A stretch of DNA of 39,326 nucleotides from Syntrophaceae bacterium (GTDB taxonomy: Bacteria > Desulfobacterota > BSN033 > UBA1163), in NCBI GenBank assembly GCA_018333715.1, contig JAGXSW010000068.1:1-39326 (forward strand), read 5' to 3'. Below, one piece after another: positions 1-39,326 of the stretch; position 1 is the first letter of the stretch; each line of letters starts with the position of its first letter. The position numbers were made by a program, and so were the translations under genes. The notes below the pieces were generated by a model that worked only from the letters and a program-made list of their open reading frames with translations, was not told the DNA's origin and searched no databases.

Positions 1-102
1 AAAACCGGTGTCCAGTGTTTTTATAAGTGCTTGAGATTACTGGATTCCGGCTTTCGCCGGAATGACGATCGTTAGGATTTTTCGACTTTTTACGAGACCA
101 TC
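1..102. mobile_element. MITE family A copy, left end truncated by the window edge
   Basis: Aligns base-for-base with 23548-23657 (AAAACCGGTGTCCAGTG...CTGGATTCC-N-GGAATGAC...GACTTTTTACGAGACCATC). Ends with the same terminal repeat as the other copies. Confidence 0.8.
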
Positions 103-410
103 AAGTTATGACTCTACTCTTTTTGACCATTTGGAGGAGTTCGGGAGAAACTCGAAAAACCCAGAATGAAATTGTCAGGGAATATAAACGGATTTTCCGG
201 CCTATGATATCTACAGAGATGATTTGACCGGTAAATTTTTATAACCAGTTGAATATATTTGCTTATGGATTGATTAAAGATTAGGCAAATCGTTAAAGAA
301 TTTGAAGGGCACGCCATTTTAAAACTGAAAACTTTAAGTTATCAACAGGGTTTAAACAAAAAATGTGGGAAATAAGTCTAACTAATTAAAATCATTTATT
401 AAATAGAAAA

Positions 411-7155: not shown

Positions 7156-7484
7156 AATGGTTAAAAACGCTTCTGATCATGATCATCTTCATCCTTGTCA
7201 TCCTGTTCTCCCTTCAAAACAGGGAGGAGGTGGGCCTCCGATTTGGCCTTTATCCCATCCAGGACCGGTTTTGGGAGGTTCCAAAACTTCCCCTCTTTTT
7301 AATCATCCTCTGTTCCGTCTTCGTGGGAGTGTTGATCGGGGGAATCGGAGACCTTTACCAGAGGTTTCAACTTAAAAAATCACTTCGCCAAAATGAGAAA
7401 ATGATTGAGAGATTGAGCAGGGAGGTGGAGACGCTTCGGGGCTCAGGGATGGAGCAACCCTCATATCTTAAAAGAGACGTTTGA
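7152..7484 (+). CDS. LapA-domain (DUF1049) inner membrane protein
   Basis: Two TM segments followed by a charged coiled tail LKKSLRQNEKMIERLSREVETLR. GTG start overlaps the HIT gene stop. Confidence 0.7.
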   Translation: MKWLKTLLIMIIFILVILFSLQNREEVGLRFGLYPIQDRFWEVPKLPLFLIILCSVFVGVLIGGIGDLYQRFQLKKSLRQNEKMIERLSREVETLRGSGMEQPSYLKRDV

Positions 7485-7584
7485 TCTTTTTAAACCCCCA
7501 GAAAAAGGGTCTCCTCGTCAAAATTATTCTCTTGCAATTAAGATAAAATTGTAGTATATTTTTTTTACAGAATCGGGTCTGCTG

Positions 7585-7615
7585 AAAAAGCGGGCTTTTT
7601 GCCCGCTTTTTTTTT
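7585..7615 (+). terminator. rho-independent terminator
   Basis: AAAAAGCGGGC-TTTTT-GCCCGCTTTTT followed by a T-run. Confidence 0.8.
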
Positions 7616-7643
7616 AGGACGGCCCTTTAAAAGGGAAAGCAGG

Positions 7644-8102
7644 ATGTCAGGGGAGATTATCGACCGGGTGATGAAAATCATCGGCCCCATCCTTTTAGAT
7701 GAAGGGATGGAATGTGTGGATCTGGAATACCGGAGGGAGGCAAGAGGATGGGTCTTGCGCCTTTACATCGATAAAGAGGGAGGGGTCACGCTCGACGATT
7801 GCGCCAGAATCAATCAGCAAGTGGGAAGAACATTAGATGTGGAAAACCCCATTGACACCCCTTATCATTTGGAGGTCTCTTCTCCCGGTTTGACACGACC
7901 CCTAAAGACCCAAAGAGATTTCGTGAAATATCAGAATCGTCTGGTCAAGATCAAGACCGCTGAACCCATCGGGAACCAACGACAGTTTAGGGGAAGACTT
8001 TTAAGGGTCGTCACTGAAGGGATTGAGATCGAAATGGATGGAAAGGCATTTCATATTCCTTTTCAAAACATAGCAAAGGCACGTTTAGAATTGGAGTTTT
8101 AA
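7644..8102 (+). CDS. rimP: ribosome maturation factor RimP
   Basis: VDLEYRREARGWVLRLYIDKEGGVTLDDC...LEVSSPGLTRPL. The ORF-track start at 7599 lies inside the terminator, so ATG 7644 is preferred. Confidence 0.9.
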   Translation: MSGEIIDRVMKIIGPILLDEGMECVDLEYRREARGWVLRLYIDKEGGVTLDDCARINQQVGRTLDVENPIDTPYHLEVSSPGLTRPLKTQRDFVKYQNRLVKIKTAEPIGNQRQFRGRLLRVVTEGIEIEMDGKAFHIPFQNIAKARLELEF

Positions 8103-8118
8103 GAAGGAGAAGTCAACC

Positions 8119-9597
8119 ATGCCAACCAATCTAAATTTTGTGATTGACCAGGTGGGAAAGGACAAAGGGATCGACCGGAAGGTGATCATCGAAGCGCTGG
8201 AACAAGCCGTGCTGACCGCCTCCAGAAAAAAATACGGTCAACAAGGGGAGATCGAAGTTCGCTATAACGAAGAAATTGGAGAGGTGGAGTTATTTCAATT
8301 TAAACAGGTCGTAGAAGAGGCGCTCGACCCCTCGACGGAAATCTCAATTGAAGAGGCCAGGGAACTGGACAGCGAGGCGCAGGCTGGGGACAGCCTGGGC
8401 GTCAAACTCAATACCGATTTTGGCCGAATCGGCGCCCAGACGGCAAAACAGGTGATCATCCAGAAGGTTCGCGATGCTGAAAGGGATAATGTTTATAATG
8501 AGTTTAAAGACCGCAAAGGAGATCTCGTTAGCGGAACGGTCCAGAGGATGGAGAAAGGGAATCTCTACATCAATATCGGAAGGGCGGAAGCCGTCCTTTT
8601 ATCGAAAGAACAAATTCCCGGCGAGGTCTACCGGCAGGGAGAACGGATCAGGGCCTATATCCTTGATGTCCAGAAGAATGCCAAGGGACCCCAGGTCTTT
8701 CTCTCCAGAACTCATCCGGGATTTCTCATCAAACTTTTCGAAATGGAGGTGCCGGAAATCTCCGAAGGGGTGATCAAGATTATCAGCGCGGCTCGGGAGC
8801 CGGGAGAGAGGGCAAAGATCTCCGTCTACAGTTCAAACCGTGATGTTGATCCTGTCGGCGCCTGTGTGGGCATGAAAGGTTCCAGGGTTCAAAATGTGGT
8901 TCAGGAACTCCGCGGGGAAAGGATCGATATTATCCCGTGGTCCCAGGATCAGGCCAAATATGTTTGCAATGCACTCGCCCCTGCCAAAGTCTCAAGAGTT
9001 TACATCGATGAGGAAAACCGTCATATGGAGGTGGTGGTTGCGGATGACCAGCTTTCTCTCTCTATTGGGAAGAAAGGGCAAAATGTTCGTTTGACCTCCA
9101 AATTAACAGGATGGAAGATCGATATCAAGAGTGAATCAAAGATGGAAAAGATTTCCGGCGAGATTCTGGAGAGCTTTAAGAGCCTTCCGCATATCGGGGA
9201 TGTGGGAAGCCGCGTCCTTTATAATGAAGGGTTTCGGTCCCTCCAGGAGCTGGGGGAGGCTGATCCTGAAGAATTGGCCAAGGTTCTAGGAACCGAGAAG
9301 GGGAAGGCGGCCGAAATTGTTCAAATCGCATTACGGATGGCTCAGACGAAAGGGGTTGAAGAAGGCCTCCCGGGATCCCCGCAGCCGGTCGAAGAACCTG
9401 GCCTCGATCCTGTCGAGAGGATAGAAGGGGTCGGAGAGAAACTTGCGGAAATCCTGAAAGACCATGGATTTCATAACATCAGGGACATTCTGAAGTCAGA
9501 CGTGGAAAAACTTTCCGGCCTCCCGGGAATTGGCGCGAAAAAGGCGGACAAATTGATCCGCTCAGCGAAACAATTTGTCGAAGGCAATCGCCCATGA
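8119..9597 (+). CDS. nusA: transcription termination/antitermination factor NusA
   Basis: S1 and KH region (GACVGMKGSRVQNV, IGKKGQNVRL) plus C-terminal HhH repeats. Conserved position after rimP. Confidence 0.97.
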   Translation: MPTNLNFVIDQVGKDKGIDRKVIIEALEQAVLTASRKKYGQQGEIEVRYNEEIGEVELFQFKQVVEEALDPSTEISIEEARELDSEAQAGDSLGVKLNTDFGRIGAQTAKQVIIQKVRDAERDNVYNEFKDRKGDLVSGTVQRMEKGNLYINIGRAEAVLLSKEQIPGEVYRQGERIRAYILDVQKNAKGPQVFLSRTHPGFLIKLFEMEVPEISEGVIKIISAAREPGERAKISVYSSNRDVDPVGACVGMKGSRVQNVVQELRGERIDIIPWSQDQAKYVCNALAPAKVSRVYIDEENRHMEVVVADDQLSLSIGKKGQNVRLTSKLTGWKIDIKSESKMEKISGEILESFKSLPHIGDVGSRVLYNEGFRSLQELGEADPEELAKVLGTEKGKAAEIVQIALRMAQTKGVEEGLPGSPQPVEEPGLDPVERIEGVGEKLAEILKDHGFHNIRDILKSDVEKLSGLPGIGAKKADKLIRSAKQFVEGNRP

Positions 9598-9833
9598 GCC
9601 GAAAGGGACATGTCCCGATTCGCATGTGTATGGGATGCAGAAAGAGAAGGAAGAAAGAGGAGATGATTCGATTCACCCGGACTGCCGGAGGCGAGGCCCC
9701 GGCTCCCGGTGGAAAGAATCAGGACGGGAGAGGGCTTTATCTCTGCCCCGATGCATCCTGTTTAAAGGCGGCAAAGAAGAAGCGCCGTTTAGAGCCATTT
9801 AAAGATAATTGCAAAATGCAAATTGAAAAATGA
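9594..9833 (+). CDS. ylxR: YlxR/DUF448 family RNA-binding protein
   Basis: PIRMCMGCRKRRKKEEMIRF...GRGLYLCP. Overlaps the nusA stop, its canonical position. Confidence 0.85.
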   Translation: MSRKGHVPIRMCMGCRKRRKKEEMIRFTRTAGGEAPAPGGKNQDGRGLYLCPDASCLKAAKKKRRLEPFKDNCKMQIEK

Positions 9834-10050
9834 AAAATTAGCAATGCCTCAGTTACGGGTTCAAGTAATGCAAATGTACCCATATACCCCTCTTTGGAAA
9901 AGAGGGGCTAGGGGAGATTTTCCTATCATAATTTTAAAATCCCCCTTTATCCCCCTTTGCCAAAGGGGGATAAAAATACCCATAACTGAGGGATTACAAA
10001 AATTAACAATCAATGCTAATTTTGCAATGCTAATTTTATAATTTGCATTG
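9806..10050. repeat. composite palindromic repeat element (family D, GCAAAATTAGCA arms)
   Basis: Outer AT-rich inverted arms. Inner inverted repeat CCTCAGTTACGGG/CCCATAACTGAGG encloses hairpins CCCCTCTTTGGAAAAGAGGGG and CCCCCTTTGCCAAAGGGGG. The arms recur at 19903-20086. Confidence 0.75.
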
Positions 10051-10087
10051 ATCTTTTGAAAAGGGTTAATTTGAAGGAGGAAGCGGA

Positions 10088-12961: not shown

Positions 12962-12974
12962 ATCTGACGACATA

Positions 12975-13243
12975 CAATGAACGATGGACAATGAACAAGG
13001 GACGGATAAATCCGGAATAATGGAAGATTGATGGAATCGTAAAAAGTCGTCATTCCCGTGAAAACGGGAATCCAGAGAATTCTAACTATATGAAAATAAT
13101 GGATTCCTGCTTGCGCAGGAATGACAAAAATCTCCTTTTCAGACTTTTTACGAGATCATCAAGATTGGAATAATGGAATGTTGGGTAAAACTCCCAAAAA
13201 CAACTTTTTTTAACCCATTATTCCGCCATTCCATCATTCCAAT
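12975..13243. repeat. composite intergenic repeat (CAATGAACGATGGACAA module plus family B GGAATAATGG hairpin) interrupted by a MITE
   Basis: Collinear with 28248-28362 apart from the 130-bp insert plus the 7-bp duplication. Confidence 0.85.
13031..13160. mobile_element. MITE family A copy (variant) with 7-bp target-site duplication AAGATTG
   Basis: Termini ATGGAATCGTAAAAAGTC / GACTTTTTACGAGATCATC. Internal GTCATTCCC-N-GGGAATCCAG and GGATTCCTGC-N-GCAGGAATGAC hairpins. AAGATTG at 13024-13030 and 13161-13167. Confidence 0.85.
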
Positions 13244-13252
13244 TTTAAAACG

Positions 13253-14552: not shown

Positions 14553-14635
14553 ACGATGAACAATGACCGGTTAAGGTAACGGTGACGATGCCCGTATCGT
14601 TCATAAAAGGTTACGGTTGTCGTCTTTTAATTCTT
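14550..14635. repeat. family C repeat (GGTAACGGTGACGATGCCCGTATCG core)
   Basis: Shares its core with 24652-24672, 24732-24761, 25583-25608 and 28222-28245. Confidence 0.7.
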
Positions 14636-19902: not shown

Positions 19903-20086
19903 ATCAGTGCAAATTGCAAAATAGTCAATTAGCAATTAGCATTAAAAAATGAATTCAAGTGGTTTTTAACATTGTTAACTTTGTATTGCTAATTTTGCAT
20001 TGTTAATTGATTATTTTATTGGTTCAAGTGGTTTTTAACATTGCTAACTTTGCACTGCTAAATTTGCATTGTTAATTGATTATTTC
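19903..20086. repeat. family D AT-rich repeat including a two-copy tandem duplication of about 69 bp
   Basis: TTCAAGTGGTTTTTAACATTG(T/C)TAACTTTG...GCATTGTTAATTGATTATTT occurs at 19954 and again at 20023. GCAAAATTAGCA-type arms are shared with 9806-10050. Confidence 0.8.
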
Positions 20087-22714
20087 ATGGAAGTGATCAC
20101 CACTCATATAAATGCTGATTTCGATTCTCTGGCTTCCATGCTGGCAGCCAAAAAACTCTATCCGGGAGCGGTCCTGGTCTTCCCAGGCTCCCAGGAGAGG
20201 AGCCTGCGGGAGTTCTTCATCCACTCCACCCTCTATGCCCTCGAGGTGGAACGGGTGAAAAATATTGACCTCCGCCAGATCGAAAGGTTGATCCTGGTCG
20301 ACACCCGTCAGACCAGCCGGATCGGGAAATTTTCGGAGATCGTGATGAAGCCCGGCCTGGATATCCATATTTACGATCACCATCCTCCTTCTTCAGATGA
20401 TATTCGGGGCTCTCTAGAGGTTGTTGCGGAAGTGGGAGCCACCGTCACACTTCTTCTGGACCTCTTGAGGAAAAAAGGGGTTGACATCACGCCTGATGAA
20501 GCCACGGTGATGCTCCTTGGCATCTATGAGGATACGGGAAACCTGACCTTCTCCTCGGCCAGAGAGGAGGATTTTAAGGCGGCAGGATATCTGGTGGGAA
20601 AAGGAGCCAACCTCAATATTCTGTCGAACGTGATCACCAAAGAGCTCACCTCGGAACAGGTCTTCCTGCTCAATGACCTGATTCAGTCGGCTACCCGGTA
20701 CGATGTCCACGGCATCGATGTGGTGATTGCGCAGGCATCTGTGGATTGGTATATCGGTGACATTGCCATCCTCGTCCATAAGTTAAAGGATATGGAGAAC
20801 CTCGATGTCCTTTTCGTCCTCGTCCAGATGGAAGGTCGTGTCTACCTGATTGGAAGGAGCAGGATTGAGGAAGTCAATGTCTCAGAAATAGCCTCTGAAT
20901 TTGGAGGCGGCGGCCACCCCACCGCCGCCTCAGCAACCATCAAGGGAATGCCGCTCATCGAGGCGCATCGGCGGTTGCTCAAAGTGTTGAGACAGGTCGT
21001 CAGGCCAAGAAGGGTGGCCAAGGACCTCATGGTCTATCCGGTCAAGACGGTGGAACCCGACCGGACTCTGGAGGAGGCAGGAGAGATCCTTTCCCGATAT
21101 CTGCTCGATATTCTCCCGGTCTTTAAAGAGGAGAGAGTGGTTGGACTCATCTCCAAGGAAGTGGTGGACAGGGCGGTTCGTCACGGGCTAAAGGAGGCCC
21201 TTGTGAAAGAGTATATGACGACGGAGTTCTCTGCCGTCTCACCGGAAACCCCCTTTTCCCGAATTCAGGAATTGGCCATCGGACAGAGCCAGAGCCTCAT
21301 CCCGGTCATCGAAAAGGAGCGGCTCGTTGGGGTTGTAGCTCTCGGCGATGTGATGCAGGTCCTCCACGAGGGGATGATCAAATCGGTGAGAGAGATTCAA
21401 CCCCTTTATGCGCGAAAGAAGATGATCTCAAAATTGATGGAGGAGCGATTTCCGGAAAGGATACGGAACCTCCTTGCAGAATTTGGCCGGGTAGGGGATG
21501 AGCTGGGATATTCGGTCTTCGGCGTGGGAGGTTTTGTCAGGGACCTCCTGATGAGGGTGGAAAACGACGATATCGATATCGTTGTGGAGGGCGACGGGAT
21601 CCGTCTCTCTGAGGAATTCGAAAAAAGATTTCACTGCCGGATTCGAACCCACAAAAAATTCGGGACCGCCCTCATTCTCTTCTCGGATGGCCTTAAGGTG
21701 GATGTGGCGACCGCGCGCCTGGAGGTCTATGACTCTCCGGCCGCCCTTCCCACGGTGGAAAGGGGGTCGATCAAGGCGGACCTTTATCGCAGGGACTTTA
21801 CCATCAATACGCTGGCCATCCACCTCAATCCCCGGTCCTTCGGAGAATTGATCGATTTTTTCGGCGGGATGAAAGATATTAAGGAGAAGGTGATTCGTGT
21901 CCTTCATAATCTCTCCTTTGTGGAGGATCCGACCCGCGTCTTTCGGGCGATCCGTTTCGAACAACGCTTGAAGTTCCAGATCGGGAAGCCCACCCAGAAT
22001 CTGATGAAGAATGCGGTCAAGATGTCCATCTTTGATCGACTTTCAGGGGGACGGATTCTCTCAGAGCTTATTCTCATCTGCCAGGAAGAGGATCCCATCC
22101 CTGCCATGAAACGGATGAGAGATTTCAACCTCTTCCATTTTCTCCATCCCCAACTCAAAGTGGACGAGGAGAAGATCGCCCTCTTCGAACAGATTCATCA
22201 TGTCATCTCCTGGTTTGACCTTCTCTTCCTCGAGGAGAAATATGAGAGTTGGCTCATCTACTTTTACGGCCTCATCGATTCCCTCCAGGAGCGGGAGAGC
22301 CTGGAGATCTGCGAACGATTGTCGATGAATGACCGTCTGAAAAAAAGTGTGATTGAGGGAAAACGCCAGGGCGATCTGGCTTTATTCAAGATATACTCCT
22401 GGATCAGCGCCGGGAAAGAACCCAGACGTTCGGAGATTTACACGATTCTCGATTCCCTTTCAACGGAGGTCAAACTGTTGATGATGGCCAAGACAACCCG
22501 GATGGCCACCCGTCGATACATCTCTCTCTACTTTACCCAGTTGAAGGGTACGAAACCGATATTGAGAGGGGCCGACCTGGTTCAAATGGGAATCAAACCC
22601 GGACCTTCCATTCGGGAGGGTTTGGAGGATCTTCTCAAAGCCCGACTCGACGAACAGGTGATCACACGACAGGATGAGTTACAATACTTGACCAGATCTC
22701 TCAGGGTGGAATGA
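20087..22714 (+). CDS. DHH/DHHA1 phosphoesterase - CBS pair - class II nucleotidyltransferase (CCA-adding / poly(A) polymerase family) fusion protein
   Basis: - DHH/DHHA1 motifs: HINADFDSLAS, LVDT, YDHHP, EDTG, GGGGHP.
- Two CBS modules.
- Nucleotidyltransferase motifs: GVGGFVRDLL..DDIDIVVEG and RRDFTINTLA.
- ATG 20087 preferred over TTG 20069, which lies in the repeat. Confidence 0.9.
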   Translation: MEVITTHINADFDSLASMLAAKKLYPGAVLVFPGSQERSLREFFIHSTLYALEVERVKNIDLRQIERLILVDTRQTSRIGKFSEIVMKPGLDIHIYDHHPPSSDDIRGSLEVVAEVGATVTLLLDLLRKKGVDITPDEATVMLLGIYEDTGNLTFSSAREEDFKAAGYLVGKGANLNILSNVITKELTSEQVFLLNDLIQSATRYDVHGIDVVIAQASVDWYIGDIAILVHKLKDMENLDVLFVLVQMEGRVYLIGRSRIEEVNVSEIASEFGGGGHPTAASATIKGMPLIEAHRRLLKVLRQVVRPRRVAKDLMVYPVKTVEPDRTLEEAGEILSRYLLDILPVFKEERVVGLISKEVVDRAVRHGLKEALVKEYMTTEFSAVSPETPFSRIQELAIGQSQSLIPVIEKERLVGVVALGDVMQVLHEGMIKSVREIQPLYARKKMISKLMEERFPERIRNLLAEFGRVGDELGYSVFGVGGFVRDLLMRVENDDIDIVVEGDGIRLSEEFEKRFHCRIRTHKKFGTALILFSDGLKVDVATARLEVYDSPAALPTVERGSIKADLYRRDFTINTLAIHLNPRSFGELIDFFGGMKDIKEKVIRVLHNLSFVEDPTRVFRAIRFEQRLKFQIGKPTQNLMKNAVKMSIFDRLSGGRILSELILICQEEDPIPAMKRMRDFNLFHFLHPQLKVDEEKIALFEQIHHVISWFDLLFLEEKYESWLIYFYGLIDSLQERESLEICERLSMNDRLKKSVIEGKRQGDLALFKIYSWISAGKEPRRSEIYTILDSLSTEVKLLMMAKTTRMATRRYISLYFTQLKGTKPILRGADLVQMGIKPGPSIREGLEDLLKARLDEQVITRQDELQYLTRSLRVE

Positions 22715-23456: not shown

Positions 23457-23718
23457 ATGGAATGATGGAACAATGGAATAATGGGTGAGAAAAAGGGATT
23501 TTTATGGTTTTACTCAACATTGATAGTCTCGTAAAAAGTCGTCTCACCGGTGAAAACCGGTGTCCAGTGTTTTCATAACCGTCTGAGATTACTGGATTCC
23601 CCGATCAAGTCGGGGAATGACGATCATTAGGATTTTTAGACTTTTTACGAGACCATCAACCTTCCATTATTCCAATATTCCAGTATTCCGGAATTTTATT
23701 GTCCATACTGATCATTAA
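23457..23718. repeat. composite intergenic repeat (family B hairpin plus TTGTCCAT module, reverse orientation) interrupted by a MITE
   Basis: Reverse-complement collinear with 12975-13243 and 28248-28362. Confidence 0.8.
23523..23657. mobile_element. MITE family A copy with decayed target-site duplication
   Basis: ATAGTCTCGTAAAAAGTC...GACTTTTTACGAGACCATC. Flanks are AACATTG and AACCTTC, against the uninterrupted AACATTC (as GAATGTT) at 28299-28305. Confidence 0.85.
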
Positions 23719-24621: not shown

Positions 24622-24638
24622 TGACCCATTGGGAAATA

Positions 24639-24761
24639 AAGGTTACGTCCAACGGTAACGAGGCCCGTATCGTTAATAGGAGGTAACGTTAAGCGTTTTT
24701 TCATTCTTTGAACGGTACCGTAACCGATAACCGAAACGGGCTTCGTAACCGTCACCGTCAC
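24639..24761. repeat. two inverted family C cores between convergent genes
   Basis: GGTAACGAGGCCCGT at 24654-24668 and ACGGGCTTCGTAACC at 24736-24750 are near reverse complements. The repeat abuts both stop codons. Confidence 0.7.
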
Positions 24762-25582: not shown

Positions 25583-25645
25583 GGGTTACGGTGACGAAGC
25601 CCGTATGGTTTGATAGTTAAACGGTTGTGGGTTCCCCCGTGGGGT
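25583..25645. repeat. family C repeat copy
   Basis: GGGTTACGGTGACGAAGCCCGTATGG. Confidence 0.65.
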
Positions 25646-25698: not shown

Positions 25699-26811
25699 AT
25701 GAACAAAAAAGAGAGAAAACTATTAGTGGTGGATGACAACATCGACTTCGTCCATTTCATACGGAGAGCTTTGGAACAGGAGAATTACCGAATCTCCATC
25801 GCCCTGGATGGGAAAACAGCCATTGAAAAAGCGTCAACAGAAAATCCGGAGCTCATTCTCCTTGACATGAAACTGCCTGACATATCGGGAGAAGAGGTAT
25901 TGGAGAGGGTTAAGGAGATCAATAAAGGTATCCCCGTGATGGTCATCACCGGTTATGGAGGAGACCAGTTGGCCATCGACATGATGAGAAAAGGGGCTGT
26001 CGATTTTCTCACAAAACCTCTGGAACCCCGGATTCTTATCAAGGCGATAAAGAACGCCCTGGCGATTCACGACACCCGGCAGGAGGACAAAAAGTTTAAC
26101 CCCTATCCCTCTCTTGAAATATTTTTCCCTTTTCTCGCCCATGAGATTCGAAATCCCCTCCATGCCATCTCAGGGGCCCTGGCCATCATCCAAAAGCGCT
26201 GTAATTTGAAGGATCAATTTCTCACCCAATCCATCAAGATCATCCATGAAGAAGTTCAGCGCTTAAATGATTTCGTTCAGGGGTGTCTCAATTTTGTAAG
26301 ACCTCCCGATTTCATTCGTTTCAGCGAGGTGAACCTCCGGGAGGTGATTTCAGTGACCGTGAGCATGCTGGCTCACATGTTTGAATCCGAATCAAATAAA
26401 ATCGAGATCACCGTCAAGGCTGATCCTGATCTCCCAAAGGTTTATGTCAATTATGAAGAGATTAAACAAGCCTTTTTAAACATCATCAAAAATGCCTATG
26501 AGGCGATGCCTGAAGGAGGGGAATTATCGATCGAGGCCTCCGAGACCCATGAATCCCCCAAAATGATAGAAGTTGTTTTTACGGATCAGGGGGTAGGAAT
26601 AAAGAAGGAAGCGATGGGCTCTCTCTTTAGTCCTTTTTATACCAACAAACCCAGGGGAAATGGGTTAGGGTTGGCCCTCTGTCGAAGAATCATTGTCGAA
26701 CGTCATCAGGGGACAATCCATATCGAAAGCGAAGAAAAGAAGGGAACAACGGTTAAAGTAAAGTTGCCCGCCACCCGACTACAAGAAAATACTCCAGGAG
26801 AAGCATCGTGA
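25699..26811 (+). CDS. hybrid receiver-histidine kinase (REC-HisKA-HATPase), cytoplasmic
   Basis: REC motifs VVDDN, LLDMKLPD, ITGYG, LTKP. H-box FLAHEIRNPL, N-box NIIKNAYEAM, G-boxes DQGVGI and GNGLGL. No TM segment. Confidence 0.9.
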   Translation: MNKKERKLLVVDDNIDFVHFIRRALEQENYRISIALDGKTAIEKASTENPELILLDMKLPDISGEEVLERVKEINKGIPVMVITGYGGDQLAIDMMRKGAVDFLTKPLEPRILIKAIKNALAIHDTRQEDKKFNPYPSLEIFFPFLAHEIRNPLHAISGALAIIQKRCNLKDQFLTQSIKIIHEEVQRLNDFVQGCLNFVRPPDFIRFSEVNLREVISVTVSMLAHMFESESNKIEITVKADPDLPKVYVNYEEIKQAFLNIIKNAYEAMPEGGELSIEASETHESPKMIEVVFTDQGVGIKKEAMGSLFSPFYTNKPRGNGLGLALCRRIIVERHQGTIHIESEEKKGTTVKVKLPATRLQENTPGEAS

Positions 26812-28188
26812 CGTCTCAAGCTTCTATTTTAGTGGTCGATGACGAACCCAATTCTCTTTTCGGAATATGCGAGGTTCTCAACGATGAGGGTTTTAATGTC
26901 CTTCCGGCCGGAAACGGGAGAGAAGCGTTGGGGTTGCTCCATGTGAATCCCATCAATGTGATCGTGACCGACGAGAAGATGCCTGACTTGAGCGGCATGC
27001 AGTTCCTCGCCGAAGTAAAGAAGAACCATCCAGACATTCCGGTGATCCTCATCACGGCTTACGGGTCCGTTTCGATGGCGGTTGAAAGCCTCAAGCAAGG
27101 GGCGTTCTATTTCTTTGAAAAACCGATTTTCAATAATTTAGAGAGATTTGTCACCATCATCCGGCAGGCCGTCAAAACTCAGGAGATGGAGAAAGAAATC
27201 AACTCTCTAAGAAGAGAAGTGACTGAAAAATATTCTTTCCCAAATGTCATCGGGAATCACCCCAAAATGATTGAGATTTTTGAGACCATTGGAAAGGTAT
27301 CCAGGACCGATGCGACCATTCTCATTCAGGGGGAGAGCGGGACCGGGAAAGACATCATTGCAAAAAACGATCCATTACAATAGTTCGAGACGGGAAAAAC
27401 CGCTGGTAACCGTCAATTGTGGAGCGCTCACGGAAAGCCTTCTCACGACGGAATTATTTGGCCACACAAGGGGAGCGTTTACAGGCGCGGTCAAGGATAC
27501 GATCGGACGCTTTCAGGCAGCCCATGAAGGGAGCTTGATCTTGGATGAAATCAGTGAAATTCCAGTCAATCTTCAAAAAAACCTTTTAAGAGTGATCGAA
27601 GAAAAGGAGTTTGAAAGGGTGGGGGATTCGAGGTCGACCAAGGTCGATGTTCGAATCATCTCCACAACCAACCGAAACCTTAGGGAAGAGGTGGTCAAAG
27701 GTAATTTCAGGGAAGATCTTTATTATCGATTGGGCATCGTTCCAATAACTCTCCCCCCCTTAAGGGAGCGCCTCTCAGACCTCCCATTGCTGGTCAACCA
27801 TTTTCTTAAGAAGTTCCAGAAAGGCAAGGTTCCGTTAAAAATTGAGCCGGAAGCAATCGAGCGTCTCAAGACATTTTCCTGGCCTGGAAATGTCAGGGAA
27901 TTGGCCAATGTGGTTCAGCAGATGGCGGTTTTCTGTCGAAATCATATCATCAGGGTTGATGACCTTCCTTCCCACCTTCTTCTCAATGCGGAAGATGTCC
28001 TGGCTGGGGAAAAGGGGAAGGTTGACTTAATGAAGAGGGTAGGAAATCTTGAGAAAAAAACAATTCTTGCTAAATTGAAAGAGACCAACTGGAATCAAGA
28101 GAAGACAGCAGAACTGCTTGGAATAACAAGGAAAATGCTGTCGAATCGAATCGATAAATATCATCTCAAGCCATTAAAAAAGAGGTGA
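26808..28188 (+). pseudogene. NtrC-family sigma-54-dependent response regulator (REC-AAA+-HTH) with the frame broken at an A6 run
   Basis: - ORF 26808-27383 ends GESGTGKDIIAKNDPLQ*.
- The +1 frame continues KTIHYNSSRREKPLVTVNCGA...GAFTGA...Fis-type HTH.
- Deleting one A at 27362-27367 restores GKDIIAKTIHY. Confidence 0.85.
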
Positions 28189-28213
28189 TCTTCGTGTTTG
28201 GGCAATAGTCAAT

Positions 28214-28362
28214 GGGTTAAGGTTACGGTTACGAAGCCCGTAACGTACAATGAACGATGGACAACGAACATCCGTAATAATGGAAGATTGGAATAATGGA
28301 ATGTTGGGTAAAACTAAAAGATAACTTCTCCTTACCCATTATTCCACTATTCCATCATTCCA
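28214..28362. repeat. uninterrupted composite repeat (family C core, CAATGAACGATGGACAA module and family B hairpin): the empty-site reference
   Basis: Contains both intact MITE target heptamers, AAGATTG at 28284-28290 and GAATGTT at 28299-28305. Confidence 0.85.
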
Positions 28363-28378
28363 CTTGAGGATATAATCT

Positions 28379-29514: not shown

Positions 29515-29660
29515 CACTAGTGTACTGTTACAGTAATCACTTTACAATCTTGTCATTCCGGACTTGATCCGGAATCCAGTCTTTTCTATCTGGATTCCCG
29601 CTTTCGCGGGAATGACATTTCTAGGGTTATTGTAAAGCTGTTATTGAAACACTACACTAG
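29515..29660. mobile_element. MITE-like element sharing family A inner hairpin modules but with different termini
   Basis: Termini CACTAGTGTA...TACACTAG. Inner GTCATTCCGGACTTGATCCGGAATCCAG and CTGGATTCCCGCTTTCGCGGGAATGAC. Confidence 0.7.
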
Positions 29661-31809: not shown

Positions 31810-31841
31810 ATTTTCATATCATATTAAGGAGTTGAATGGTG

Positions 31842-31987
31842 ATGGTCTCGTAAAAAGTCGAAAAATCATAATAATCGTCATTCCCCGACTTGATCGGGAA
31901 ATCCAGTAATCTCAGGCACTTATGAAAATACTGGACACCGGTTTTTCCCGCGTTTCGCGGGATGAGACGACTTTTTATGAGACCATC
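31842..31987. mobile_element. MITE family A copy (inverted orientation) with a perfect 7-bp target-site duplication AATGGTG
   Basis: ATGGTCTCGTAAAAAGTC...GACTTTTTATGAGACCATC. AATGGTG at 31835-31841 and 31988-31994. Confidence 0.9.
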
Positions 31988-32068
31988 AATGGTGGTTATA
32001 ATAAAAATCAAAAAAGAATATCTTTTGAAAAGAGAACTCCCCGTTTTTTTTCGATGGTAAAGGGCAAT

Positions 32069-33926: not shown

Positions 33927-35393
33927 ATGAGGATAACAAAAAAGGCTACCTCTAATAATGTCATTCCTGCGAAAGCAGGAATCAAGAAATTTTTGAAATC
34001 ACTGGACTCCCGCCTGTGCGAGTGTGGCAAATTGATAATTATTAGAGGTTCCCAAAAGAGAATCTGGCTGGGGATAGCGATCCTTTTCCCAATCATCGTG
34101 GGAATACCCATCGTCGTCCAGGCGGCAGTCGAGGACATCCTCTCGCACTTTCAGGTCTATGTGACGGCCCAGGAAGAATATAACAGTAATATCGACCTGA
34201 GGCCGAACCGATTTAAAAGGGACGATTTTATTACCACGATCTCTCCCGGGATAAGATTTTCCACAACACCCAAATCACCTGTGACGGGTGAATTCAGGCA
34301 GACCCCCACTGCTGAAGAAAGGTATGGCGTGGATCTCGACTTCCGGGCGGGATTCGTCTTTTATGCCAAAGAACATGATGACAATTATATCAGTCTTAAC
34401 GGAACGCTCAACGGTTGGTATACATTCACCCGAAATTTAACTTTCCGGGTGAGGGACTACCTGATTCGGTCCGATGAAATAAGAGAAACGGACTTGTCTG
34501 CCAGTGCGCTGCCGGGCCAAACTCTTCTTGCGAGAACCAACCGGAGAGAGCCCTATTACCGAAATGTCTTTGAACCTTCCCTGGAATATCGGTTTGGGAG
34601 AGAAAACCTTGTTGCCGTTAACTACCGAAACAGCATCTACAGGATTAAGAGCCGGACCGCTGAAGACAGCACGGAAAACTATTTCAATCCCAGGGTCGCC
34701 TATTGGTTCAATGTCAGACATGGCGTCTCCTTTGAATATGGCCTGTCACTCGGAGATTTCCAGCGATCCCCCGATTTGGTAGGGCATATGGCGATGGGCC
34801 GTTATACCTATCGTTTTAATCCGAGGACTTCGGTCTTCGGGGAATATACTTATTTAACCCGTGATTTTGAATCGCCTTCGATTGGCTATGATGTCCATCG
34901 ACCGAGCCTTGGGATTGACCATGCTTTCAGTCCGACATTGAGCGGAAGGGGACAGGCGGGGCACTTCTGGCAAAACCCGGAGAGAGGTTCCACCACCCGT
35001 GGGTTCTTTTATGATGCAAGCCTCTCGAAGCGTGGAGATAAGACCACCTATGCTCTCTCTTTTCAGGGAGGATATACAGAGGTTTATTTTGCTGCTGAGA
35101 ATCTTGGTTTTATAAAAAACCATCGAGTAACTGGGAGTATCACTCACCAACTTCTACAAAGGATGTCCGTCGGACTTTATAGCAGTTATGAATGGGCCAA
35201 ATACCCCGGGACCGAGATCGGGTTCAGAACGCCCGTCGATCAAATCTGGGGGGTTGGAGGAAATGCCTCGTATCAGATACTGAGATGGCTTAATCTATCC
35301 CTTGATCTCTCGCACCGGGAGAATCGCTCCAATATTTCAGACAGGGACTATAGCGAATACCGCGGGATGTTAAGAGCAACAGCCACCTATTAA
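33927..35393 (+). CDS. outer-membrane beta-barrel protein, PEP-CTERM/EPS-locus associated, with a repeat-derived insert in its N-terminus
   Basis: Signal peptide KRIWLGIAILFPIIVGIPIVVQA. Alternating beta-strand pattern throughout, with an aromatic C-terminal residue (ATATY). Residues 8-41 are encoded by the repeat at 33949-34048. Confidence 0.8.
   Translation: MRITKKATSNNVIPAKAGIKKFLKSLDSRLCECGKLIIIRGSQKRIWLGIAILFPIIVGIPIVVQAAVEDILSHFQVYVTAQEEYNSNIDLRPNRFKRDDFITTISPGIRFSTTPKSPVTGEFRQTPTAEERYGVDLDFRAGFVFYAKEHDDNYISLNGTLNGWYTFTRNLTFRVRDYLIRSDEIRETDLSASALPGQTLLARTNRREPYYRNVFEPSLEYRFGRENLVAVNYRNSIYRIKSRTAEDSTENYFNPRVAYWFNVRHGVSFEYGLSLGDFQRSPDLVGHMAMGRYTYRFNPRTSVFGEYTYLTRDFESPSIGYDVHRPSLGIDHAFSPTLSGRGQAGHFWQNPERGSTTRGFFYDASLSKRGDKTTYALSFQGGYTEVYFAAENLGFIKNHRVTGSITHQLLQRMSVGLYSSYEWAKYPGTEIGFRTPVDQIWGVGGNASYQILRWLNLSLDLSHRENRSNISDRDYSEYRGMLRATATY
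33949..34048. mobile_element. short MITE-like element with 11-bp perfect terminal inverted repeats inside the coding region
   Basis: CCTCTAATAAT...ATTATTAGAGG. Inner module GTCATTCCTGCGAAAGCAGGAATC is shared with family A and translates as VIPAKAGI. Confidence 0.7.
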
Positions 35394-35403
35394 CACGTGA
35401 GGT

Positions 35404-35451
35404 CCCCTCACCCTCCCCTCTCCCCGTGGGGGAGAGGGAAAGGGTGAGGGG
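35404..35451. repeat. GC-rich palindrome (REP-like intercistronic stem-loop)
   Basis: CCCCTCACCCTCCCCTCTCCCC-GT-GGGGGAGAGGGAAAGGGTGAGGGG. No T-run follows. Confidence 0.7.
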
Positions 35452-35480
35452 CGACTAACGATTTTACGGAGTATAAAACC

Positions 35481-39076: not shown

Positions 39077-39326
39077 CGTATTCATAAATTTTGAGTTTTA
39101 AGTTTTGAATAGAAAAAGTAGACTCAACATTTATAATTTAACATTAAACCCACCTTCCGGAAACTATGGTGCAACTGATTGATATAATTAAGTTGTCTTT
39201 TTATTTTTATGGACTACATTATCATTTTCGGCATTTTGATTTCCAGTTTGTCCAGCAAATCCTTCTGCTGGAAGTTAAGTGCCACGGGTTTCCGTACGCT
39301 TTTTCCTGAAAGGCGATCTCTCAGGG

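What the first reader, a model, noticed from the sequence alone, without database searches (positions are those of the whole stretch)
12975..13243. Filled and empty sites in the same window: two independent MITE insertions into paralogous copies of another repeat
The composite repeat at 28214-28362 reads ...GGAAGATTGGAATAATGGAATGTTGGGTAAAAC... without interruption.

- The 13-kb paralogue carries a 130-bp MITE exactly after AAGATTG, and that heptamer is duplicated (13024-13030 and 13161-13167).
- The 23.5-kb paralogue, in reverse orientation, carries a MITE at a different heptamer. Its flanks AACATTG/AACCTTC correspond to the single AACATTC in the uninterrupted copies.

This is direct in-sequence evidence of transposition with 7-bp duplication and nested repeat architecture.
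Basis: seen in the sequence. Interest (0 to 1): 0.62.

Follow-up and report, generated by a model that had tools for sequence, protein, structure and literature searches.

The report
MITE insertions inside a hairpin repeat
Two copies of a small non-coding jumping element (a MITE) landed independently in two copies of a hairpin-forming intergenic repeat of an uncultured sulfate-reducer-type bacterium; this is clean but ordinary evidence of recent transposition, and the duplication it makes is 6 bp, not 7.

Summary
The repeat at 28243-28362 is uninterrupted. Its paralogues at 13 kb and 23.5 kb each carry a MITE at a different site.

- **Flank homology.** With the element and one duplicate removed, the 13-kb copy matches the 28-kb copy at 109/119 aligned bases. 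The reverse-complemented 23.5-kb copy matches at 97/115. Both alignments run straight through the insertion point.
- **Not an artefact.** All three complete MITE copies recur in independent assemblies.
- **Orthologous empty sites.** Related strains (~95% identity) have them. Two runs hold contigs exactly 142 bp shorter at 23.5 kb, which is the 136-bp element plus 6 bp.

The correction concerns the duplication length. Across 119 family members from public genomes the ends are GAYG...CRTC. The duplication is 6 bp in 63 copies, 7 bp in 10 and 5 bp in 4. Swapped-flank controls give 2.

The intact repeat has only two AAnnTT sites, and these are the two sites hit.

The family is abundant in Desulfobacterales-type genomes, and I found no description of it. 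I did not find its transposase. The neighbouring IS1634-family element has unrelated ends.

Verdict: a real, ordinary, new member of a known kind.

The parts
12970..13023 (+). 13-kb copy of the host repeat, 5' part (ACAATGAACGATGGACAAT module and start of the GGAAT arm), up to the duplicated site
   Evidence: Aligns to 28243-28283.
13024..13029 (.). Left target-site duplication, AAGATT
   Evidence: Direct reading. 6-bp TSD rule from 119 family members.
13030..13160 (.). MITE copy b, 131 bp. Ends GATGGAATCGTAAAAAGTCG / CAGACTTTTTACGAGATCATC, with two internal GTCATTCC..GGAATCCAG hairpin modules
   Evidence: DNA fold -27.1 kcal/mol, z = -6.9. 98.5% identical to a second copy at L299 7159-7289. 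96-97% identical to copies in L125 and L049.
13161..13166 (.). Right target-site duplication, AAGATT
   Evidence: A single AAGATT stands at the paralogous site 28284-28289 and in the ortholog L010.
13167..13243 (+). 13-kb copy of the host repeat, remainder (GGAAT arm, loop, ATTCC arm)
   Evidence: 13161-13192 is 100% identical to 28284-28315; 82% over the following 49 nt.
28243..28362 (+). Uninterrupted host repeat (empty sites). Arms are built of 8-nt units GGAAnnnT / AnnnTTCC. Its only two AAnnTT sites are 28284-28289 (AAGATT) and 28300-28305 (AATGTT)
   Evidence: RNA fold of 28205-28378: -50.5 kcal/mol, z = -4.4.
23457..23515 (-). 23.5-kb copy of the host repeat, part on the low-coordinate side (ATTCC arm and loop when read on the - strand)
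23516..23521 (.). Target-site duplication: AACATT on + (AATGTT on -)
   Evidence: Same as the single site in the empty allele of runs X5 and X8.
23522..23657 (.). MITE copy c, 136 bp
   Evidence: Contigs in X5 and X8 join 23519 to 23662, skipping 142 = 136 + 6.
23658..23663 (.). Target-site duplication with one later substitution: AACCTT on + (AAGGTT on -)
23664..23718 (-). 23.5-kb copy of the host repeat, remainder (GGAAT arm read on the - strand)
31835..31993 (.). MITE copy d (element 31841-31987, 147 bp) with perfect 6-bp duplications AATGGT at 31835-31840 and 31988-31993. Not inside a GGAAT repeat
   Evidence: Filled in L301 and L302. Related strains read straight through.
1..108 (.). 3' 102 bases of MITE copy a, cut by the window start, plus its right flank AAGTTA(T)
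   Evidence: The complete copy is at L299 9379-9522, flanked by AAGTTAT on both sides.

Best explanation
The inserts are copies of a non-autonomous DNA transposon (a MITE) of 131-147 bp.

**Anatomy**
- It has roughly 20-bp terminal inverted repeats, GAYGRnnTCGTAAAAAGTC.
- The interior is palindromic, built of GTCATTCC...GGAATCCAG hairpin modules.
- It has no room for a gene.

**Inferred mechanism**
- A transposase supplied in trans recognises the two ends.
- It joins them to target DNA cut with a 6-bp stagger.
- Repair of the stagger duplicates the 6 bp.

**Target preference**
- The preferred target is AAnnTT, flanked by a pyrimidine on the left and a purine on the right.
- The host repeat is a long imperfect hairpin whose purine-rich arm is a run of 8-nt units GGAAnnnT. 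Some units read GG-AAnnTT-G and so present that motif.
- The intact copy has exactly two such sites. One paralogue was hit at the first (AAGATT) and the other at the second (AATGTT).
- Because the next base is G in each case, the duplication looks 7 bp long.

**Order of events**
- The hairpin repeat was there first, and the insertions are recent. Strains about 95% identical still have the empty sites.
- They are not brand new: one duplicate at 23.5 kb has since mutated.

**Shown:** the ends, the duplication length, the target consensus, filled and empty alleles, and multicopy status.
**Inferred:** the trans-acting DDE-type transposase and the cut-and-paste or replicative chemistry.
For: - **Ends.** Four TIR-bounded copies lie in the window and a fifth just upstream.
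- **Family size.** These are mostly Desulfobacterales/Thermodesulfobacteriota MAGs, plus Syntrophales, Nitrospirota, one Acidobacteriota and the cultured Desulfosarcina variabilis.
- **Duplication length.**
  - 63/119 copies have a perfect 6-bp direct repeat directly outside G...C, and 16 more have one mismatch.
  - 10 have 7 bp and 4 have 5 bp.
  - Swapping flanks between copies gives only 2 perfect 6-bp matches.
- **Duplication, not inverted repeat.** The central dinucleotide is the same in direct sense in 75/119 copies and as a reverse complement in only 15/119.
- **Target logo.** Position 1 is A in 97% and position 6 is T in 94%. Position -1 is C or T in 73%; position +1 is G or A in 80%.
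- **Orthologous empty alleles.**
  - Contigs in X5 and X8 join 23519 to 23662 and span unique sequence on both sides.
  - L010 has the hairpin with a single AAGATT.
  - At 31.8 kb, a related-strain contig in X10 runs from AATGGT(G) into a diverged version of the downstream spacer. X8's contig also lacks the element, but its site itself is diverged.
- **Filled alleles** recur in independent assemblies.
- **Target sites.** The intact repeat has only two AAnnTT sites, the two that were hit.
- **Same pattern elsewhere.** A different metagenome contig (L233) has a family member in a GGAAT arm with the 6-bp duplication AACAAT.
- **Recent amplification.** The 13-kb copy is 98.5% identical to the copy at L299 7159-7289.
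Against: - **No autonomous element found.** I found none with matching ends in about 850 kb of MITE-bearing genome loci. I checked TIR pairs, lone TIRs and ORFs recurring between loci. Viral contigs and plasmids gave none either. The only transposase nearby, an IS1634-family gene, has unrelated ends. The trans-mobilisation step is therefore inferred.
- **Duplication length is not strictly fixed.** Copy a is flanked by a 7-bp repeat, AAGTTAT.
- **An alternative reading cannot be excluded.** The near-invariant A and T at the outer duplicate positions also fit a 4-bp duplication with ends one base longer. That reading needs an extra coincidence at every site.
- **Enrichment is not significant.** Two insertions among the 3 complete copies in the window, or 5 in the contig, is about P 0.04-0.1. 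This assumes insertions fall uniformly over the 68 intergenic AAnnTT sites.
Confidence: 0.88

Rival explanations
1. One reading: the element is 130 bp (13031-13160) and makes a 7-bp duplication, AAGATTG at 13 kb and a heptamer at 23.5 kb.
For: - AAGATTG is literally present twice.
- All three complete window copies have G after the right duplicate.
- 10 of 119 family members have a true 7-bp duplication, and copy a has AAGTTAT on both sides.
Against: - G at the left end and C at the right end are conserved in 114-118 of 119 copies, as mirror-image element termini.
- A 7-bp model would leave the 13-kb element without its left terminal G.
- The base after the right duplicate equals G in only 40/119 copies.
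- Perfect 6-bp duplicates outnumber 7-bp ones 63 to 10.
Confidence: 0.06
2. The outer A and T belong to the element (ends TGAYG...CRTCA) and the true duplication is only the inner 4 bp.
For: Duplicate position 1 is A in 97% of copies and position 6 is T in 94%. That is as conserved as the TIR itself.
Against: - Empty sites contain the full A-nnnn-T once. This model therefore still needs the target to carry A and T at exactly those places, and also needs the element to end in the same bases. That is two requirements where a 6-bp duplication needs one.
- Position 2 (A, 74%) and position 5 (T, 66%) are also biased and also duplicated.
Confidence: 0.05
3. The element is actively directed to the hairpin repeat by its structure or sequence, as some insertion sequences are directed to REP-type palindromes. 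A short AAnnTT motif alone would not then explain the two hits.
For: - 2 of 3 complete copies in the window lie in GGAAT hairpins, which occupy under 1% of the window.
- An independent case exists in L233.
- Insertion of IS1111 into the palindromic QMITE2/REP of Coxiella is a precedent (PMC5896051).
Against: - No GGAAT arm lies beside a MITE in the genome-scan loci. The only arm found outside the window, in L069, is about 3.4 kb from that locus's copy.
- Other copies in the same contig sit in ordinary AT-rich spacers (ATATAT, AAGTTA, AATGGT).
- Only 1 of 120 GGAAT hairpins fetched from metagenomes carries a MITE.
- The excess in the window is about P 0.04-0.1 on a simple motif model.
Confidence: 0.12
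4. The nested pattern is an assembly artefact: repeat-induced chimeric contigs. Alternatively it arose by recombination between repeats, not transposition.
For: - The window is a metagenome contig that begins in a MITE and ends in an insertion sequence.
- Short-read contigs often break at these repeats.
Against: - The same filled junctions occur base-for-base in separate JGI, ENA and Logan assemblies.
- The empty allele differs by exactly element plus 6 bp.
- Each copy has its own site-specific duplication.
Confidence: 0.02

Closest known systems
Bacterial MITEs in general (Correia element of Neisseria, Chunjie of Geobacter uraniireducens, QMITE1/2 of Coxiella; review PMC10969869)
   Same: - Small, non-coding and multicopy, with terminal inverted repeats and a site-specific direct duplication.
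- Intergenic, including insertion inside an operon as described for Chunjie. Here the operon is nusA-infB-DUF503-rbfA-truB-rpsO-pnp.
- Size and sequence subfamilies share the same ends.
   Different: - The end sequence TCGTAAAAAGTC was found in no paper of the library.
- Chunjie is 178-235 bp; this family is 131-153 bp.
- The duplication is 6 bp at AAnnTT, whereas the Correia element duplicates TA (my own knowledge).
- No parent insertion sequence has been identified.
IS1111 insertions into the palindromic QMITE2/REP element of Coxiella burnetii (PMC5896051)
   Same: - A mobile element sits inside copies of another, older hairpin-forming repeat.
- Strain comparison shows filled versus intact copies and dates the insertions to after strain divergence.
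   Different: - There the guest is an autonomous IS110-type element (family from my own knowledge) with a strong preference: 20 of 21 copies are in the repeat.
- Here the guest is a MITE, and most family members are not in the hairpin repeat.
REP/BIME elements and cyanobacterial short tandemly repeated repetitive (STRR) sequences, as analogues of the host repeat (my own knowledge)
   Same: Intergenic, hairpin-forming, multicopy, variable between strains, and tolerated inside operons. Like STRR, the arms are tandem runs of a short unit.
   Different: - The host repeat is a hairpin of about 90 nt built of 8-nt units GGAAnnnT / AnnnTTCC. The 5' arm has almost no C and the 3' arm almost no G.
- It has no GTAG head.
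- No Rfam family matched the window at gathering score.
- No bacterial paper appeared among the ten listed of 75 that hold an arm sequence.
ISDol1 group of ISNCY insertion sequences (first found in Desulfococcus oleovorans), as a candidate parent
   Same: From memory of the ISfinder family table only: these elements make 6-7 bp duplications and come from Desulfobacterales. That fits the 6-bp (sometimes 7-bp) duplications and the host range seen here.
   Different: Not tested. No ISDol1 sequence was available in the tools, so the ends could not be compared. The literature held here confirms only that ISDol1 is an ISNCY subgroup.

Membership tests
MITE (miniature inverted-repeat transposable element) | Small size with no coding capacity | tested here: met
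   Copies are 131, 136, 144 and 147 bp. Family lengths are 124-153 bp. That is too short for a transposase.
MITE (miniature inverted-repeat transposable element) | Terminal inverted repeats | tested here: met
   GAYGRnnTCGTAAAAAGTC stands at both ends. End positions are conserved in 81-118 of 119 copies on either side. Arms are 86-95% complementary within copies.
MITE (miniature inverted-repeat transposable element) | Target-site duplication, unique to each copy and of characteristic length | tested here: met
   6 bp: 63 perfect plus 16 with one mismatch, out of 119. The swapped-flank control gives 2. Window copies: AAGATT, AATGTT/AAGGTT, AATGGT.
MITE (miniature inverted-repeat transposable element) | Multicopy and dispersed | tested here: met
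   Five copies lie in about 42 kb of this genome.
MITE (miniature inverted-repeat transposable element) | Evidence of mobility: filled and empty sites | tested here: met
   Paralogous empty sites at 28284 and 28300. Orthologous empty sites in X5 and X8, L010 and X10.
MITE (miniature inverted-repeat transposable element) | An autonomous relative with the same ends | tested here: inconclusive
   None found in the fetched genome loci, viral contigs or plasmids. Whole genomes could not be searched for TIR pairs 1-3 kb apart.
IS1634-family insertion sequence as the parent of this MITE | Matching terminal inverted repeats | tested here: not met
   The IS next to the window start is at L299 about 7358-9367. 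Its transposase scores 234 bits on NF033559 (cut-off 100). It ends in CCCACCTTCCGG / CCCGACTTCCGG, unlike GATGGTCTCGTAAAAAGTC.
ISNCY / ISDol1 group as the parent of this MITE | Matching ends and 6-7 bp duplication | not testable with these tools
   No reference sequence was available. The duplication length for the group is from memory.
REP/BIME (for the host repeat) | Short (about 20-40 nt) G+C-rich imperfect palindrome with a conserved GTAG-type head, linked to a RAYT transposase | tested here: not met
   The host repeat is a hairpin of about 90 nt made of A+T-rich 8-nt units, with no GTAG head. No RAYT-like gene was seen in the window ORFs scanned. RAYT presence elsewhere in the genome was not tested.

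The most novel reading that the evidence does not exclude
The host repeat may be the more novel object, rather than the MITE.

- GGAAT-octamer hairpins are strand-asymmetric hairpin cassettes.
- They are found in more than 100 unrelated metagenome contigs with GC from 35 to 65%.
- They sometimes carry cargo between the arms.
- They are swapped, gained or lost at orthologous spacers between strains about 95% identical.

They could be an undescribed class of mobile or templated intergenic element that also serves as a safe landing pad for MITEs. Separately, the MITE family may be moved by a transposase type not yet linked to any MITE, since no parent was found.
Probability: 0.2. Interest if true: 0.55.

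Novelty: new member of a known kind. Interest (0 to 1): 0.3.

Why it matters
- **A defined family.** The work fixes the ends, duplication length and target motif of a very abundant MITE family in uncultured Desulfobacterales-type bacteria. I found no description of this family.
- **Practical annotation value.** Short-read contigs break at these elements. From my own knowledge, copies of this kind are also often annotated as spurious short ORFs.
- **Recent activity.** Insertions are polymorphic among strains about 95% identical.
- **Why nested repeats arise.** A repeat made of units containing the target motif is hit repeatedly. No dedicated targeting is needed.

None of this changes what is known about how MITEs work.

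Tried and rejected
- **Search for the autonomous element.**
  - TIR pairs 200-5000 bp apart, lone TIRs followed by ORFs, and ORFs recurring between loci gave only false positives, for example a threonine-dehydrogenase-like gene in L106.
  - A scan of viral contigs with the TIR gave mostly chance matches and a few MITEs.
  - BLAST against plasmids found nothing.
- **IS1634-family element upstream of the window.** Its ends are unrelated to the MITE's.
- **Rfam.** There was no hit at gathering score for the window or for 15 hairpin loci. The weak sub-threshold hits to WsnRNA46 and FtrB are 24 bits against cut-offs of about 65. I do not count them as membership.
- **MAFFT alignment of the three repeat copies.** It mis-registered the 8-nt units, so I replaced it with a pairwise alignment after removing the element.
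- **A joint in X1/X2 that looked like an empty 13-kb allele** (12997 to 13161). It is the 28-kb paralogue mapping there, because the inserted letters TCCGTAATAATGG are those of 28270-28282.
- **Literature.** No paper holds the TIR string. No bacterial paper appeared among the ten listed for the GGAAT arms. The Chunjie paper and the FEMS insertion-sequence review were not held.
- **Taxonomic labelling of the GGAAT loci.** Exact protein look-up gave only one label, Desulfobacteraceae.

Full report
**1. Checking the observation**

- **28-kb copy.** It runs GGAAGATTGGAATAATGGAATGTTGGGTAAAAC without a break.
- **13-kb copy.** It has AAGATTG at 13024-13030 and at 13161-13167, with 130 bases between.
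- **23.5-kb copy.** Read on the minus strand, it has GGAAGGTT, then an insert, then AATGTTGAGTAAAAC.

I removed each insert with one copy of its flanking repeat and aligned the remainder to the 28-kb copy.

| Copy | Identical / aligned bases vs 28-kb copy |
|---|---|
| 13 kb | 109/119 |
| 23.5 kb, reverse complement | 97/115 |

Both alignments run straight through the insertion point. The flank homology is far beyond chance: a 25-mer shared by the 13-kb and 28-kb copies occurs in none of 100 shuffles.

**2. What the insert is**

*Copies in and near the window*

The 12-mer TCGTAAAAAGTC marks the ends of four elements in the window.

| Copy | Coordinates | Length | Flanking duplication |
|---|---|---|---|
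| a | window 1-102, cut by the window start; complete at L299 9379-9522 | 144 bp | AAGTTAT both sides (7 bp if the first base A is a mutated terminal G) |
| b | 13030-13160 | 131 bp | AAGATT |
| c | 23522-23657 | 136 bp | AATGTT / AAGGTT (one later substitution) |
| d | 31841-31987 | 147 bp | AATGGT |
| second b-type | L299 7159-7289 | 131 bp | ATATAT |

- The longer public contig L299 supplies the complete copy a and the second b-type copy.
- The second b-type copy is 98.5% identical to the 13-kb copy.
- Each element folds as a long hairpin; copy b gives -27.1 kcal/mol, z = -6.9.
- None has room for a gene.

*Family-wide ends and duplication*

Most are Desulfobacterales/Thermodesulfobacteriota MAGs. 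Syntrophales, Nitrospirota, one Acidobacteriota and the cultured Desulfosarcina variabilis are also present.

In 119 copies with enough flank:

- The element ends are conserved as GAYG...CRTC.
- The sequence directly outside them is a direct repeat.

| Duplication length | Perfect | One mismatch |
|---|---|---|
| 6 bp | 63 | 16 |
| 7 bp | 10 | 4 |
| 5 bp | 4 | 3 |

- Swapping flanks between copies gives 2 perfect 6-bp matches.
- The two central bases agree in direct sense in 75 copies and as a reverse complement in 15. It is therefore a duplication, not an extension of the inverted repeat.
- The target logo is Y-A-A-w-n-T-T-R. A stands at position 1 in 97% and T at position 6 in 94%.

**3. Correcting the duplication length**

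- In the window the base after each right-hand duplicate is G, the same as the element's first base. That is why AAGATT plus G looks like a 7-bp repeat.
- Family-wide, that base equals G in only 40/119 copies.
- The net insert sizes, 137 bp at 13 kb and 142 bp at 23.5 kb, equal element plus 6 with both conserved termini intact.

**4. Real, and recent**

*Filled sites in independent assemblies*

| Site | Loci |
|---|---|
| 13 kb | L297 |
| 23.5 kb | L166, L167, L170 |
| 31.8 kb | L301, L302 |

*Empty sites in related strains*

These strains are about 95% identical to the window in the flanking genes.

- **23.5 kb.** Runs X5 and X8 hold contigs that cover unique sequence at the ScpA gene end and at the next gene's start. 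They join 23519 to 23662. They lack exactly 142 bp and read AACATT once, with the hairpin repeat intact.
- **13 kb.** Contig L010 has the hairpin with a single AAGATT and no MITE.
- **31.8 kb.** A related-strain contig in X10 runs from AATGGT(G) into a diverged version of the downstream spacer. X8's contig also lacks the element, though its site itself is diverged.

*Order and age*

- The hairpin repeat predates the MITEs.
- The insertions postdate the split of these strains.
- The substitution in one 23.5-kb duplicate shows some age.

**5. Why the same repeat was hit twice**

- The host repeat is a long imperfect hairpin: -50.5 kcal/mol, z = -4.4.
- Its 5' arm is a run of 8-nt units GGAAnnnT. 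Its 3' arm is the complementary AnnnTTCC.
- The intact copy contains exactly two AAnnTT sites, AAGATT at 28284 and AATGTT at 28300. These are the two sites used in the paralogues.
- An unrelated metagenome contig, L233, has a family member in a GGAAT arm with the duplication AACAAT.

The association is not general:

- No GGAAT arm lies beside a MITE in the genome-scan loci. The only arm found outside the window, in L069, is about 3.4 kb from that locus's copy.
- Only 1 of 120 hairpins from metagenomes carries a MITE.
- With 68 intergenic AAnnTT sites in the window, two hits in the repeats is about P 0.04-0.1.

A motif preference combined with a tolerant location is enough to explain it.

**6. 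The missing transposase**

- I found no coding element with these ends.
- The window contig is bracketed by two copies of an IS1634-family element. Its transposase is 600 aa and scores 234 bits on NF033559.
- One copy lies between the two upstream MITEs in L299. The first 178 bases of another form the window's last bases, 39149-39326.
- Its ends, CCCACCTTCCGG / CCCGACTTCCGG, do not resemble the MITE's, so it is not the parent.
- From memory, the ISDol1 group of ISNCY, first found in a Desulfobacterales species, makes 6-7 bp duplications. This is an untested lead.

**7. Context and comparison**

- **Organism.** It is an uncultured Desulfobacterales/Thermodesulfobacteriota bacterium from subsurface and groundwater samples.
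- **Location.** The 13-kb insert lies in the DUF503-rbfA spacer of the nusA-infB-rbfA-truB-rpsO-pnp gene row.
- **Precedents.** A MITE inside an operon is described for Chunjie in Geobacter. Insertion of one mobile element into an older palindromic repeat is described for IS1111 in QMITE2 of Coxiella.
- **Literature.** The end sequence was found in no paper.

**Verdict**

This is a correct and elegant observation of ordinary MITE biology. It needs one correction, 6 bp rather than 7. The element family is new but of a known kind.

Noticed in passing
window 28272-28362, 13010-13243, 23457-23718; loci L177-L296: The GGAAT-octamer hairpin is not private to this genome.

- These fall into 105 unrelated groups with GC from 35 to 65%.
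- 70 have a GGAAT arm within 1.5 kb upstream, mostly 0-150 nt away.

No Rfam family matched 15 of them, and no paper among the ten listed was relevant.
   Followed up: partly
L186, L232, L261 and others among L177-L296: Some GGAAT/ATTCC hairpins carry cargo between the arms. On the opposite strand this is an ORF whose product starts MDRKNINRGFKKLRVWQDA. To me it resembles the four-helix-bundle '23S rRNA intervening-sequence protein' family, but I did not test that. They also carry a recurrent 3' tail, AATTGTGAGCGAAGCGAACTAAGT or AATTGGGGCGAAGCCCCTAAGT.
   Followed up: no
window 12962-13252 and orthologous spacers in L001, L002, L004, L010, L297: The DUF503-rbfA spacer is replaced wholesale among strains about 95% identical.

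| Spacer content | Where seen |
|---|---|
| 37 nt with no repeat | L001, X5, X8, X10 |
| A GGTTACGGTTACGAAGCCCGT-type hairpin | L002, L004; X4 has a 141-nt replacement that was not read |
| GGAAT hairpin with a nested GGTTAGG hairpin | L010 |
| GGAAT hairpin plus MITE | window, L297 |

No duplication marks the boundaries.
   Followed up: partly
window 29517-29659: A second MITE-like element with different ends (CTAGTGTACTGTTACAGTAATCACTTTACAAT / ATTGTAAAGCTGTTATTGAAACACTACACTAG). It has the same internal GTCATTCC..GGAATCCAG hairpin modules. A lone module lies at 33959-33985. The internal modules seem to be shared between MITE families that have different ends.
   Followed up: no
window 39149-39326; L299 about 7358-9367: The window ends 178 bases into an IS1634-family insertion sequence. 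Another copy lies about 50 bases before the window start, between two MITEs. All assemblies of this region stop at that element.
   Followed up: yes
window 9795-10060, 19903-20090, 14575-14635, 24648-24760, 25584-25611, 28216-28247, 35394-35455: Many other intergenic spacers hold strong hairpins whose arms are tandem short units. Examples are 15-nt TGCAATGCTAATTTT units and GGTTACGGTGACGAAGCCCGT-type units. Several of these families recur within the window.
   Followed up: no
window 26808-28188: A sigma-54-dependent response regulator is split into two overlapping ORFs, 26808-27383 and 27271-28188. The same split is called in independent assemblies (L172-L174), so it is probably a real frameshift.
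   Followed up: no
window 13147-13174: A promoter-like match runs across the right end of the 13-kb MITE into the host repeat, pointing towards rbfA. It reads TTTACG, a 16-nt spacer, then TG-AATAAT. This is a consensus match only.
   Followed up: no
L125 6514-6644, L049 7747-7878: Copies 96-97% identical to the 13-kb MITE occur in two other labelled MAGs, Thermodesulfobacteriota Yes70-18 and Deltaproteobacteria CROMO_BS_46_3. Each has its own 6-bp duplication (ACTCTT; AACCAT/AACTAT). I could not tell whether these genomes are close relatives of the window organism.
   Followed up: partly
L187 4450-4629 versus window 24622-24760 and 28243-28362: A more distant syntenic relative (72-81% identity, Lake Tanganyika metagenome) has the same composite repeat, an outer CAATGAACGATGGACAAT hairpin enclosing the GGAAT hairpin. 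It sits in a different spacer, after the S49 peptidase gene, where the window has a GGTAACG hairpin.
   Followed up: partly
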